The notes below the pieces were generated by a model. The model ran no database searches. It saw nothing but the letters and a program-made list of their open reading frames with translations, and was not told the DNA's origin. DNA of 50,040 bases from a virus (Duplodnaviria > Heunggongvirae > Uroviricota > Caudoviricetes): IMG/VR virus record IMGVR_UViG_2529293039_000013, one strand, 5' to 3'. Position numbers and translations under genes: made by a program. Below, in pieces: positions 15,779-17,050 of the stretch. The stretch's first letter is position 1, and each line of letters opens with the position of its first letter.

Positions 15779-16003
15779 GTGAAAAAACTGATGGTGACGA
15801 TTGGTCCGTTCGAAACAGAAGTTAGTTTTCGTGTTGTTCAGGGGGAGAGTGTACTTGTTGAAGATGTATTTCATGGAAAATCAACAGGTCCTTATGTAAA
15901 AGAATATCTTATCGACGCCACGGATGAAAATATTGAGGTGGTGTACGATTCCGTCAATCACCCTGATTTGATCATTAAGGCAAAATTGAAGCCACTTTAT
16001 TGA
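15779..16003 (+). CDS. hypothetical protein (74 aa), cargo at stx-equivalent locus
   Basis: AGGAGG RBS 5 nt upstream of GTG start; no family recognised. Confidence 0.5.
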   Translation: MKKLMVTIGPFETEVSFRVVQGESVLVEDVFHGKSTGPYVKEYLIDATDENIEVVYDSVNHPDLIIKAKLKPLY

Positions 16004-16055
16004 TCTGACCGGGAGCAATCATAAAATATCTCTGGGTACCCACAAGGAGATAAAT

Positions 16056-16265
16056 ATGTTTGTTTCTGAAGTGTTAATGGAAGATAAGGACAACAAAGGA
16101 TGGGTTAAAGGTTGGGCTGTGGTAAGAAGCTCGCCCTGGCATCTTGTTGGGGTTTTTGCGACAGAGGAAGACGCAGAAACGGAAGCAAGAAAGATGGGAG
16201 ATAAGTACGAGGTTCACTATGGCTCGCATCGAACAGGAAGTGATGATTTTGTCTGGGGGGAGTAA
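16056..16265 (+). CDS. hypothetical protein (69 aa), cargo at stx-equivalent locus
   Basis: AGGAG RBS; acidic, Trp-rich; followed by terminator. Confidence 0.5.
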   Translation: MFVSEVLMEDKDNKGWVKGWAVVRSSPWHLVGVFATEEDAETEARKMGDKYEVHYGSHRTGSDDFVWGE

Positions 16266-16299
16266 CAGTCGTTTAACCCCAGAATAATCCCGTAACTGA

Positions 16300-16322
16300 G
16301 GTCGCTATTGGCGGCCTTTTTT
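16300..16322 (+). terminator. intrinsic terminator
   Basis: hairpin ggtcgc-tattg-gcggcc followed by T6. Confidence 0.4.
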
Positions 16323-16454
16323 GTATCCGCGCCACGCCCGGCGCATATCAACCACAGAGCCTTTCGGGGGTGAGCTTACGGAGTGGTCAGTGTGACTTTC
16401 TCTGTGGGCAGATCGCTCCCGGGCGTTGGCTCACCCACCCAAAGGAACGTCACG

Positions 16455-16886
16455 ATGTTTGGTATTTTTGGTAAAAAAGCCCGCCGAGCGGCAGTGGAAA
16501 TTAAAAAGTTTGAGAAACGTGATCTGGCACAGGCGGTTATTAATGCTGCCTATCTGGTGGCCTATGCAGATGGTGAATGTGAGGCTTCAGAGAAAGCGAA
16601 GATCGAGCAGATCTTGCGTAACCAGCCTGCGTTGTCCGCGTTTACGTCAGAAATTAATGCGATTAGCGCAACCATTATCGGTCAGCTGGATACGAACTTT
16701 AAAATTGGTCGTCGAGCGGCATTGCGTGAAATTGAAGATGTGAAACACGATACGCGTGAAGCGGAAGATGTGCTGGATGTGGCGGTGGCCATTGCGGAGG
16801 CAGACGGCGAAATTGAGCCGGAAGAGCGCAAGGTGCTGGAAGAGATTGCCGGTGTTCTGGGTCTTCGTCTGGAGAATCACCAGTGA
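16455..16886 (+). CDS. TerB-like (tellurite-resistance TerB family) domain protein
   Basis: motif AVINAAYLVAYADGECEASEKAKI typical of TerB-like domains; internal start with AAAGGAA RBS. Confidence 0.6.
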   Translation: MFGIFGKKARRAAVEIKKFEKRDLAQAVINAAYLVAYADGECEASEKAKIEQILRNQPALSAFTSEINAISATIIGQLDTNFKIGRRAALREIEDVKHDTREAEDVLDVAVAIAEADGEIEPEERKVLEEIAGVLGLRLENHQ

Positions 16887-17050
16887 CGGTAAAACTGCGC
16901 CTGGCTGTGGCTGCACTCCTGCTGTTTCTGGTGGTGATGGTGGATTTCACCAGCAGAATCATGTCGGTGCTGGCGGATGGGGTGCTGGTCTGCGGCATTG
17001 TGGTATTGCTGTGGCCGGTGATAAAAAGAAACAGCCTGCATAATGCTTGA
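16883..17050 (+). CDS. small hydrophobic membrane peptide (55 aa), translationally coupled to TerB-like gene
   Basis: GTG overlapping upstream TGA; two predicted hydrophobic helices. Confidence 0.3.
   Translation: MTVKLRLAVAALLLFLVVMVDFTSRIMSVLADGVLVCGIVVLLWPVIKRNSLHNA

What the first reader, a model, noticed from the sequence alone, without database searches (positions are those of the whole stretch)
15779..17050. Unrecognised cargo cassette at the stx-equivalent locus
In Stx phages the slot just downstream of Q, the late promoter and the ileZ-arg tRNA cluster, and upstream of nanS-p, carries stxAB. Here it carries two small ORFs (74 and 69 aa) with good ribosome-binding sites, a TerB-like protein and a translationally coupled 55-aa membrane peptide. 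I recognise none except the TerB-like fold. Genes here would be expressed at high level on prophage induction, which favours toxins, anti-defence or abortive-infection functions.
Basis: partly seen in the sequence, partly recalled or inferred. Interest (0 to 1): 0.6.

Follow-up and report, generated by a model that had tools for sequence, protein, structure and literature searches.

The report
Two stacked morons in the stx slot
The place where Shiga-toxin phages carry stxAB holds here the common but functionally untested phage gene pair tciA-tciB plus a rarer, uncharacterised pair of small genes; this is ordinary, already annotated prophage cargo with no sign of a toxin.

Summary
Four ORFs lie at 15779-17050, downstream of Q and an Ile(CAT)/Arg/Arg tRNA cluster and upstream of a nanS-p-type esterase. 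Junction alignments show this is exactly the slot that holds stx2AB or stx1AB in Stx phages and is empty in phage Nil3.

It is not one unrecognised cassette. It is two stacked modules, each ending in its own terminator-like hairpin.

- **tciA-tciB (16455-17050).** A TerB-fold protein is translationally coupled to a two-transmembrane DUF3927 peptide. The pair was named in phage P1 by homology only. It is in 840 of 5426 complete E. coli genomes, with a median of six copies.
- **ORF1-ORF2 (15779-16265).** This low-GC insert is in only 110 genomes. Both proteins are uncharacterised. They form a conserved pair in all ten Enterobacterales loci examined, always next to a lysis cassette. A conserved hairpin-like element encloses ORF2's ribosome-binding site.

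No upstream promoter-like site was found for ORF1 or tciA, so Q-dependent late expression is inferred, not shown. No toxin, defence or anti-defence homology was found. The sequence is 100% identical to annotated O26 and O145 EHEC genomes. Interest is low to moderate.

The parts
14142..14936 (+). Q antiterminator. The ORF runs from a GTG at 14142. RefSeq uses a 250-aa form starting near 14184.
   Evidence: Pfam Antiterm PF03589 8.9e-53. Annotated 'antitermination protein' in O26 11368. Not Q82-like.
15040..15070 (+). First terminator-like hairpin after Q (GAACCCGCCGATGCGCGGGTTTTTTTGTA). It is a candidate tR'. Homology with Stx2a phages starts here.
   Evidence: Direct-repeat families D1/D2. The Stx2a-phage match begins at query position 107-108, which is window 15042-15043.
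15246..15398 (+). Remnant of a DNA methyltransferase gene (C-terminal fragment)
   Evidence: RefSeq annotates the identical O26 sequence as a partial site-specific DNA-methyltransferase. ORF listed.
15439..15688 (+). tRNA cluster Ile(CAT)/Arg(TCG)/Arg(TCT), the ileZ-argN-argO type
   Evidence: ARAGORN. Rfam tRNA. The same genes are annotated ileZ/argN/argO in Stx2a_WGPS8.
15702..15729 (+). Terminator-like hairpin T1. It is the left boundary of the cargo slot.
   Evidence: Terminator scan. Similarity to the Stx2a and JLK-2012 sequences ends just after TTTTTTGTATCTGCG; Nil3 departs from them slightly earlier, within the terminator tail.
15779..16003 (+). ORF1: 74-aa acidic soluble protein with a small six-strand beta-sandwich fold, PHROG 2571, function unknown
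16028..16055 (+). Conserved inverted repeat enclosing ORF2's Shine-Dalgarno (ATATCTCT-GGGTACCCACAA-GGAGATA)
   Evidence: Conserved in 9 distinct loci. Folds with the SD paired in all of them. Pair counts.
16056..16265 (+). ORF2: 69-aa acidic soluble protein, PHROG 4280, function unknown
16298..16325 (+). Terminator-like hairpin T2. It is a diverged duplicate of T1 and closes the ORF1-ORF2 module.
   Evidence: Terminator scan. Direct repeats D3 (15698-15725 / 16295-16322, 79%) and D5 (15721-15742 / 16317-16338, 82%), together about 45 nt. Alignment with JLK-2012.
16326..16454 (+). Structured leader of tciA, about 130 nt, with no promoter-like site
   Evidence: RNAfold -57 kcal/mol, z = -2.2. 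No + strand promoter found. The same leader follows the single terminator in JLK-2012.
16455..16886 (+). tciA: 143-aa cytoplasmic TerB-fold protein
   Evidence: Pfam TerB 1.7e-16. PHROG 632 1.2e-68. PDB 2jxu TerB 4.1e-8. 42% identical to P1 TciA.
16883..17050 (+). tciB: 55-aa basic peptide with two hydrophobic segments (DUF3927), translationally coupled to tciA
   Evidence: Pfam DUF3927 4.3e-17. PHROG 1470 4e-30. Hydropathy. 50-70% identical to the P1, Pollock, 434 and JLK-2012 TciB proteins.
17058..17227 (+). STnc100 / PasD-family sRNA. It is the right boundary of the cargo slot.
   Evidence: Rfam RF02076, 102.4 bits against a gathering score of 47. Shared with the sequence after stx2B, after stx1B and in Nil3. 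PMC12370729.
17252..17279 (+). Terminator-like hairpin T3, ahead of the esterase gene
   Evidence: Terminator scan
17365..19218 (+). nanS-p-type sialate O-acetylesterase (DUF1737-SASA-DUF6645)
   Evidence: Pfam. RefSeq 'SASA family carbohydrate esterase'.

Best explanation
The region is the late-operon cargo slot of a lambdoid prophage. It is bounded on the left by the tRNA cluster's terminator and on the right by an STnc100-type sRNA gene. It holds two independent morons in tandem.

**Module 1: ORF1-ORF2 (15779-16265).** This is a low-GC, two-gene unit with its own terminator. It was inserted at the terminator that normally precedes tciA. It encodes a small beta-sandwich protein and a small alpha/beta protein. 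ORF2's ribosome-binding site lies in a conserved hairpin, which suggests translational control.

**Module 2: tciA-tciB (16455-17050).** This is the default occupant of the slot in non-Stx EHEC prophages. A soluble TerB-fold protein is translationally coupled to a two-transmembrane peptide.

**Expression (inferred).** Neither ORF1 nor tciA has a recognisable promoter upstream, and each module ends in a terminator-like hairpin. Both are therefore probably transcribed with the tRNAs from the late promoter, and only when Q makes RNA polymerase terminator-resistant. That means during lytic growth after induction, as for stx2.

**Likely role of TciAB (inferred, not shown).** TciB tethers or recruits TciA to the inner membrane. 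The model for this is the TerB-TerC complex and the membrane-anchored TerB domain of DjlA. The pair would then modify membrane or ion physiology in the infected cell for the phage's benefit, for example by delaying membrane failure or excluding colicins or superinfecting phage. It would not serve as a lysogenic-conversion or toxin function.

**ORF1-ORF2.** The biochemical function is unknown. Its constant position beside lysis cassettes marks it as a late lytic-cycle accessory.
For: **Shown**

- Slot boundaries and the alternative contents of the slot: stx2AB, stx1AB, empty in Nil3, tciAB alone in JLK-2012, Evi and PPyecE_EH1910.
- Four terminator-like hairpins that share a TTTTTTGTA tail.
- The ORF1-ORF2 module is flanked by a roughly 45-nt, roughly 80% direct repeat of the terminator, where JLK-2012 has a single copy.
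- ORF1 is 39% GC and ORF2 46%, against 51.6% for the window.
- The only + strand promoter-like hit in 14900-17400 is a weak one between ORF1 and ORF2.
- Module 1 is in 110 genomes. tciAB is in 840 of 5426 genomes, median 6 copies.
- TciA is a TerB-family protein.
- TciB has two hydrophobic segments and conserved DF(T/S)S and DG motifs.
- The tciA-tciB pair with overlapping or abutting genes recurs in three settings. These are P1's C1-repressed ban operon, the virulent N4-like phage Pollock, and lambdoid late operons. This argues for a role in lytic development.
- P1 tciA/B/C are non-essential in a CRISPRi screen (PMC10695390).
- A TerC-TerB complex is reported (PMC11003894, citing Turkovicova 2016).
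- ORF1-like and ORF2-like genes are adjacent in all 10 Enterobacterales loci examined. The pair lies just upstream of the holin gene or just downstream of Rz in most of them.
- ORF1 relatives overlap the Rz stop codon in Stx phages.
- The SD-enclosing hairpin is conserved.
Against: - No expression data were available, so Q-dependent read-through is inferred from anatomy only.
- The late promoter itself was not identified.
- A weak promoter-like site (TTGATC-16-TAAAAT, 16000-16027) sits upstream of ORF2 and could give lysogen expression.
- The consensus scans found no more promoter-like or terminator-like sites than shuffled sequence gives (4 against 3.3, and 4 against 2.6).
- A TciA-TciB interaction and membrane tethering are analogies, not tests.
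- No tellurite, colicin or phage phenotype has ever been shown for any TciA or TciB. The P1 annotation says 'by homology'.
- Phage 434 carries TciB with a different partner in the same slot.
- Covariation support for the hairpin is weak. Two pairs show double changes, and 77 of 500 shuffles reached the observed covariation score.
Confidence: 0.6

Rival explanations
1. Lysogenic-conversion cargo. The genes are expressed in the lysogen from their own promoters and benefit the host, for example through tellurite, oxidative-stress or colicin resistance, in the way bor and lom do in lambda.
For: - The family name and the phenotypes of the R478/pKL53 ter cluster.
- EHEC genomes keep a median of six tciAB copies.
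- Morons classically carry their own promoter.
- A weak promoter-like site lies at 16000-16027, upstream of ORF2.
Against: - No promoter-like site lies upstream of ORF1 or tciA.
- The tciA-tciB pair also occurs in a strictly virulent N4-like phage.
- In P1 it sits in an operon repressed by the C1 prophage repressor.
- ORF1 relatives are translationally coupled to Rz.
- There are no terC/D/E partners nearby.
- The high copy number simply tracks the number of lambdoid prophages.
Confidence: 0.15
2. One or more products are a toxin, an anti-defence protein or an abortive-infection or exclusion factor, delivered at high level on induction.
For: - This is the same slot as stxAB.
- ORF1 and ORF2 are small acidic proteins, as many anti-defence proteins are.
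- In other genomes the ORF1-ORF2 pair sits near Acb2/Tad1-like genes, GnsAB and toxin-antitoxin modules.
- The R478 ter cluster confers phage inhibition.
Against: - There is no significant PADLOC, Pfam, NCBIfam or PDB match for ORF1 or ORF2.
- No signal peptides were seen.
- Late expression is too late for most anti-restriction roles.
Confidence: 0.2
3. ORF1 and ORF2 are decaying or spurious ORFs in junk DNA between two terminators.
For: - IS600 interrupts ORF1 in three genomes, and IS3-family elements have deleted ORF1 in others.
- ORF1 has few close homologues.
Against: - Both belong to families spread over E. coli, Salmonella and Xenorhabdus. ORF2's family also reaches Pseudomonas phages.
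- The pairing is kept in 10 of 10 Enterobacterales loci examined.
- The ORF1 model is confident at pLDDT 88.6.
- ORF2 has 24 invariant columns.
- Both have strong Shine-Dalgarno sequences.
Confidence: 0.03

Closest known systems
tciA-tciB(-tciC) of bacteriophage P1, and the copies annotated in JLK-2012, 434 and Pollock
   Same: - A TerB-family gene is followed at once by an overlapping DUF3927 gene. TciA is 42% and TciB 50% identical to the P1 proteins, and 98% and 70% to JLK-2012.
- The pair is linked to phage tRNA genes in P1, JLK-2012 and here.
- In JLK-2012 it occupies the same Q-tRNA-[slot]-esterase position.
   Different: - There is no tciC homologue here. P1 TciC is a 35-aa membrane peptide, whereas the next feature here is the STnc100 sRNA.
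- In P1 the genes are in the C1-controlled ban operon, not a Q-dependent late operon.
- The function is untested in every case.
TerB of the terZABCDE tellurite, phage and colicin resistance cluster (R478, Klebsiella; PDB 2jxu)
   Same: The fold and family match (Pfam 61 bits, 2jxu E = 4.1e-8). Both acidic ADG...E-E repeats are kept (YADGECEASEK and EADGEIEPEERK).
   Different: - It is a stand-alone gene with no terZ/A/C/D/E neighbours.
- Its partner is a 55-aa peptide rather than the polytopic TerC.
- No resistance phenotype is known.
stxAB cargo of Stx-converting phages
   Same: The insertion slot is identical at both junctions. The upstream tRNAs and the downstream STnc100 and nanS-p are the same (PMC12370729). 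The expected dependence on Q and the late promoter is also the same.
   Different: - There is no sequence or fold similarity to Stx.
- No signal peptides were seen.
- No Stx-converting phage among the listed rows of the phage collection carried tciAB or the ORF1-ORF2 module in this slot. The unlisted records ranked lower.
Lambdoid 'morons' (Hendrix/Juhala sense), such as lambda bor and lom or the HK97 morons
   Same: - These are extra genes present or absent between conserved neighbours in related phages.
- Each module has its own terminator.
- ORF1-ORF2 has deviant GC content.
- The modules occupy the usual moron slots beside the lysis cassette.
   Different: No upstream promoter was detected for either module. 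They look like passengers of the late transcript rather than lysogen-expressed genes.

Membership tests
TerB family (Pfam PF05099) | Sequence matches the family model above the curated threshold | tested here: met
   61 bits against a cut-off of 24.4, E = 1.7e-16, covering residues 26-138. PHROG 632 'tellurite resistance', 1.2e-68.
TerB family (Pfam PF05099) | Homology to a solved TerB structure, with both acidic D-G...E-E repeat motifs conserved | tested here: met
   2jxu_A E = 4.1e-8 over residues 15-137. The motifs YADGECEASEK and EADGEIEPEERK align with SDGVSSEEK and SDGNFDDDEK. D39, E46, D117, E123 and E124 are invariant against P1 and Pollock.
TerB family (Pfam PF05099) | Part of a terZABCDE-type operon with TerC | tested here: not met
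   No ter genes in the neighbourhood. The neighbours are tRNAs, ORF1/2, tciB, an sRNA and the esterase.
TerB family (Pfam PF05099) | Confers tellurite, colicin or phage resistance | not testable with these tools
   This needs a phenotype assay. P1's annotation states 'by homology'.
P1-type tciA-tciB module | TerB-like gene immediately followed by an overlapping or abutting DUF3927 membrane-peptide gene | tested here: met
   GTGA overlap at 16883-16886. DUF3927 at 62.3 bits against a cut-off of 25. The same arrangement is seen in P1, Pollock and JLK-2012.
P1-type tciA-tciB module | Third small gene, tciC | tested here: not met
   P1 TciC (MGFWDFADKHPIVLVV...) has no counterpart. The 31-aa ORF at 17043-17138 is unrelated and overlaps the STnc100 match.
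Stx-equivalent cargo slot | Left flank homologous to the Q-distal tRNA cluster and terminator of Stx2 phages | tested here: met
   97.6% identity over window 15043-15735 to many Stx2a phages. The junction alignment diverges after TTTTTTGTATCTGCG.
Stx-equivalent cargo slot | Right flank homologous to the sequence immediately downstream of stxB (STnc100) and the nanS-p gene | tested here: met
   Alignment A8 with the sequences after stx2B, after stx1B and in Nil3. Rfam STnc100 at 102 bits. The published STnc_100 forward primer sequence is present at 17085-17104.
Moron (extra transcription unit in a phage operon) | Present or absent between the same neighbours in related phages | tested here: met
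   The slot is empty in Nil3, holds stx in Stx phages and holds tciAB alone in JLK-2012. ORF1-ORF2 is at 130 places against 3989 for tciAB.
Moron (extra transcription unit in a phage operon) | Own terminator | tested here: met
   Terminator-like hairpins at 16298-16325 and 17252-17279. This is a consensus scan only.
Moron (extra transcription unit in a phage operon) | Own promoter active in the lysogen | tested here: inconclusive
   No promoter-like site upstream of ORF1 or tciA. There is one weak site at 16000-16027, before ORF2. The scan's total does not exceed shuffled sequence. Transcript mapping is needed.
Known anti-phage defence or anti-defence families | Significant match to a PADLOC model or to a solved anti-defence protein | tested here: not met
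Type II toxin-antitoxin pair (considered for ORF1-ORF2) | Match to a toxin or antitoxin family, or a basic toxin paired with an acidic antitoxin that has a DNA-binding fold | tested here: not met
   No Pfam or NCBIfam match. Both proteins are acidic, with pI 4.97 and 4.90. ORF1 is an all-beta sandwich.

The most novel reading that the evidence does not exclude
ORF1-ORF2 is a previously undescribed, mobile, two-protein late-phase phage module. ORF1 is a fast-evolving beta-sandwich protein and ORF2 a conserved alpha/beta partner. ORF2's translation is gated by a conserved hairpin that sequesters its Shine-Dalgarno sequence. The module would carry out a specific lytic-cycle task. Candidates are countering a host defence, tuning lysis, or acting outside the cell after lysis as Stx does. 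That would explain why it travels between the two moron slots that flank the lysis cassette in Escherichia, Salmonella and Xenorhabdus prophages.
Probability: 0.2. Interest if true: 0.55.

Novelty: new member of a known kind. Interest (0 to 1): 0.27.

Why it matters
The result defines the stx insertion slot precisely. The slot runs from the argO terminator to the STnc100 sRNA. Its alternative fillings in related phages are nothing, stxAB, tciAB, or tciAB plus ORF1-ORF2. This is useful for annotating EHEC and EPEC prophages and for thinking about how stx was acquired.

It also flags two small experimental targets. The first is tciAB. It is present about six times per EHEC genome and also occurs in P1 and in virulent N4-like phages, yet it has never been tested. 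The second is the ORF1-ORF2 pair with its conserved leader element. Neither looks like a new toxin, and the sequence itself is already in annotated reference genomes.

Tried and rejected
- **Word-indexed homologue search for ORF1:** only near-identical hits. It needed the exhaustive HMMER search and a profile search.
- **Two hits in the exhaustive search:** P0026 (MBG-repeat protein) and P0027 (LRR/HEAT protein) were set aside as repeat-driven chance matches.
- **PDB sequence and profile searches for ORF1 and ORF2:** nothing below E = 0.7.
- **PADLOC and NCBIfam:** no usable hits.
- **Literature:** no paper mentions the RefSeq accessions or the old locus tags. 'DUF3927' appears only in passing. 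There are no transcriptome reports for prophage TerB genes after mitomycin C. The P1 genome paper is not held.
- **Q82-like test:** I tested whether Q is Q82-like, in order to borrow a mapped late promoter. It is not.
- **Pseudomonas phages:** the neighbour upstream of their ORF2 homologue is not ORF1-like (hhalign probability 0.5%).
- **'ORF2-only' E. coli loci:** these turned out to be IS3-family truncations, not a separate arrangement.
- **Riboswitch or leader family in the tciA leader or after Q:** only sub-threshold Leu and Trp leader hits, at a terminator.
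Full report
**1. The observation**

| Gene | Coordinates | Length | Start and ribosome-binding site |
|---|---|---|---|
| ORF1 | 15779-16003 | 74 aa | GTG, AGGAGG upstream |
| ORF2 | 16056-16265 | 69 aa | ATG, AAGGAGA upstream |
| TerB-like | 16455-16886 | 143 aa | ATG at 16455, the RefSeq start (ORF-listing runs it back to a GTG at 16383) |
| 55-aa ORF | 16883-17050 | 55 aa | GTG overlapping the preceding stop as GTGA, GGAGA 10 nt upstream |

Upstream lie a Q antiterminator (Pfam Antiterm, 8.9e-53) and three tRNAs at 15439-15688. 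ARAGORN calls the first Met(CAT), and RefSeq calls the identical gene tRNA-Ile. Downstream lies a 617-aa DUF1737-SASA-DUF6645 esterase of the nanS-p type. All four ORFs belong to conserved protein families, so they are not chance ORFs.

**2. Is it the stx slot?**

Yes, at both junctions.

- **Left flank.** Window 15043-15735 is 97.6% identical to many Stx2a-converting phages. This stretch holds a terminator, a methyltransferase remnant, the three tRNAs and a terminator-like hairpin at 15702-15729. Similarity stops just after TTTTTTGTATCTGCG, where stx2A begins in those phages.
- **Right flank.** From about 17084 (GCATGGTGAATCCCCC...) the window aligns with four sequences. These are the sequence after stx2B in Stx2a_WGPS8, the sequence after stx1B in Shigella phage 75/02, phage Nil3, and JLK-2012 after tciB.
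- **The sRNA at the right boundary.** That right-hand sequence is an STnc100 sRNA by Rfam (RF02076, 102 bits against a gathering score of 47, 17058-17227). A 2025 paper places STnc_100 75 nt downstream of the stx2 operon, and its forward primer sequence is present at window 17085-17104 (PMC12370729). A 2026 preprint groups STnc100 with the Hfq-bound PasD sRNAs next to the esterase gene.

The slot therefore runs from about 15737 to about 17057. Related phages fill it in several ways:

- Nothing, in Nil3.
- stx2AB or stx1AB.
- tciA-tciB alone, in JLK-2012, Evi and PPyecE_EH1910.
- A 247-aa membrane protein, TciB and a 62-aa peptide, in phage 434.

**3. It is two modules, not one cassette**

Terminator-like hairpins with a shared TTTTTTGTA tail lie at 15040-15070, 15702-15729, 16298-16325 and 17252-17279. 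The ORF1-ORF2 segment is flanked by two adjoining direct repeats of the terminator region, 15698-15725 / 16295-16322 at 79% and 15721-15742 / 16317-16338 at 82%, about 45 nt in all. JLK-2012 has a single terminator that runs straight into the tciA leader. ORF1-ORF2, together with a terminator, was therefore inserted at the terminator that normally precedes tciA.

ORF1 is 39% GC and ORF2 46%, against 50-54% for tciA and tciB and 51.6% for the window.

The two halves also differ in distribution.

- tciAB DNA is in 840 of 5426 complete E. coli genomes, at 3989 places. The median is 6 copies per genome and the maximum 10. Most are O157, O111, O26 and O145 strains.
- The ORF1-ORF2 DNA is in 110 genomes, at 130 places.
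- The whole 1661-bp stretch is covered at 80% or more in 87 genomes. Every listed match is 100% identical, and these include O26:H11 11368 (NC_013361, 2200397-2202057) and O145 strains.

RefSeq annotates the four genes as two hypothetical proteins, a 'tellurite resistance TerB family protein' and a 'DUF3927 family protein'. All four exact protein sequences are on roughly 1000 public contigs each.

**4. tciA-tciB**

The 143-aa product is a TerB-family protein:

- Pfam gives 61 bits against a cut-off of 24.4.
- PHROG 632 gives 1.2e-68.
- PDB 2jxu TerB gives 4.1e-8, with both acidic DG...EE repeats intact.

The 55-aa product is DUF3927 (PHROG 1470, 'TciB-like'). It is basic (pI 10) and has two hydrophobic segments. 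It carries invariant DF(T/S)S and DG motifs.

[quoted passage not shown] I found no experimental function. In a P1 CRISPRi screen tciA, tciB and tciC are non-essential.

The gene pair, overlapping or abutting, recurs in three settings:

- P1, in the C1-repressed ban operon, next to tRNA genes.
- The virulent N4-like phage Pollock and its relatives.
- Lambdoid late operons.

A pair kept by a virulent phage, and kept under prophage repression in P1, most simply serves lytic growth rather than the lysogen. TciB is better conserved than TciA, at 50-60% against 28-42% identity to the P1 and Pollock proteins.

My inference is that TciB tethers TciA to the inner membrane. It rests on the reported TerC-TerB complex and on DjlA, whose membrane-anchored N-terminal part is a TerB domain. 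NCBIfam gave a weak DjlA hit. This is analogy and was not tested. There is no tciC homologue here.

**5. ORF1-ORF2**

*The pairing.* In all ten Enterobacterales loci I could examine, an ORF1-family gene lies 39-75 nt upstream of the ORF2-family gene. ORF1 diverges much faster than ORF2. Against the window it falls to 34-41% identity where ORF2 keeps 59-65%. In most of these loci the pair sits just upstream of the holin gene or just downstream of Rz.

*Solo ORF1.* ORF1-family genes without an ORF2 partner overlap the Rz stop codon in many Stx2c, Stx2a and Stx1a phages and in H-19B.

*Features that argue against other roles.* Both proteins are acidic and have no hydrophobic segment. PADLOC, Pfam, NCBIfam and PDB gave nothing usable. 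IS600 interrupts ORF1 in three genomes, and IS3-family elements have removed it in others, so it is dispensable in the lysogen.

**6. A conserved element in front of ORF2**

The ORF1-ORF2 spacer is unalignable between distant loci except for one motif. That motif is TCTCC-GGGTACCCA-(0 to 4 nt)-AAGGAGA, placed just before the ATG.

- The 5' arm is complementary to the Shine-Dalgarno sequence.
- All nine distinct sequences fold with the Shine-Dalgarno paired, at -9 to -12.8 kcal/mol for 46 nt and z from -1.7 to -3.6. In several the AUG is paired too.
- On the alignment 88.9% of cells are paired, against 42-69% for slid controls.
- Two pairs show compensatory changes and one shows G-C to G-U. The shuffle control is not significant, because the element barely varies.

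I read this as a probable translational control element for ORF2. It could be a thermometer, a protein operator, or a device that couples ORF2 to ORF1 translation. The palindromic loop is more conserved than a loop needs to be. This reading is not proven.

**7. Expression**

The only + strand promoter-like hit in 14900-17400 is a weak one at 16000-16027. Neither ORF1 nor tciA has one upstream. The scan's counts do not exceed those from shuffled sequence, so it is weak evidence either way. The tciA leader of about 130 nt is GC-rich and structured (z = -2.2).

The simplest reading is that both modules ride the late transcript, and that this transcript passes the terminators only when Q is present. 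I could not locate the late promoter. There is a candidate by eye at 14968-14996, and this Q is not Q82-like.

**8. Verdict**

The 'unrecognised cargo' is half a well-catalogued module that has never been functionally tested (tciAB). The other half is an uncharacterised but conserved small-gene pair. Nothing points to a toxin, and the sequence is already in annotated reference genomes.

The modest new points are these:

- Base-level definition of the slot.
- The two-module architecture, with a duplicated terminator.
- The strict ORF1-ORF2 pairing.
- The conserved leader element of ORF2.

Noticed in passing
window 16028-16055: A conserved inverted repeat, TCTCC-GGGTACCCA-n-AAGGAGA, encloses ORF2's Shine-Dalgarno. 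It is kept in nine distinct loci from E. coli, Salmonella, Xenorhabdus, mEp237 and metagenome contigs, while the rest of the spacer is unalignable. All nine fold with the SD paired. There are two compensatory pairs, but the shuffle test is not significant.
   Followed up: partly
window 17058-17227: A STnc100 (RF02076) sRNA, 102 bits, starts 8 nt after the tciB stop and is followed by a terminator at 17252-17279. The same sRNA follows stx2B and stx1B in Stx phages, so it could be a 3'-UTR-derived sRNA of whatever cargo fills the slot.
   Followed up: partly
window 8578-8766: Rfam isrK (62 bits, 8578-8654) and C4 antisense RNA (81 bits, 8679-8766) lie back to back inside the 386-aa ORF at 8218-9378. 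This looks like a P1/P7-type c4-ant immunity module in this lambdoid prophage.
   Followed up: no
window 15698-15742 and 16295-16338: Two adjoining direct repeats (79% and 82%, about 45 nt together) of the terminator region bracket the ORF1-ORF2 module. JLK-2012 has one copy. This suggests module insertion or exchange by recombination at terminators that share the TTTTTTGTA tail.
   Followed up: yes
L026 (P1, 68218-73310); L001 (JLK-2012); window 15439-17050: tciA-tciB is linked to phage tRNA genes in unrelated phages. In P1, tRNA-Asn and tRNA-Thr lie upstream and tRNA-Ile(CAT) directly downstream. JLK-2012 has Asn, Thr and Gly upstream. This window has Ile(CAT), Arg and Arg upstream. The reason is unknown.
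   Followed up: no
H31-H33 and H81 (IS600 inside ORF1, near window 15886); L018 and L019: The slot is an IS target. IS600 splits ORF1 in three O26-type genomes. In L018 and L019 (O145 RM8988-C1 and strain 2013C-3492), IS3-family elements have deleted everything to the left of ORF2.
   Followed up: partly
window 15246-15398: A C-terminal remnant of a DNA methyltransferase gene lies between the first terminators and the tRNAs. It is shared with Stx2 phages, and RefSeq marks it as partial.
   Followed up: no
L020 (metagenome contig, 17941-24144): Here the ORF1-ORF2 pair sits among a SIR2-domain protein, a faint TerB hit, a P22-type antirepressor, a Band_7 protein and an Acb2/Tad1-hairpin protein. 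This is a defence and anti-defence-rich neighbourhood.
   Followed up: no
window 16326-16454: The tciA leader is about 130 nt, GC-rich and predicted to form a long hairpin (16368-16436) that ends just before the ribosome-binding site (-57 kcal/mol, z = -2.2). It has no Rfam family.
   Followed up: partly
L028 (phage 434, 40559-45651): In phage 434 the same Q-to-esterase slot carries TciB with a 247-aa membrane protein upstream instead of a TerB-like protein, and a 62-aa peptide downstream. TciB can therefore pair with other partners.
   Followed up: no
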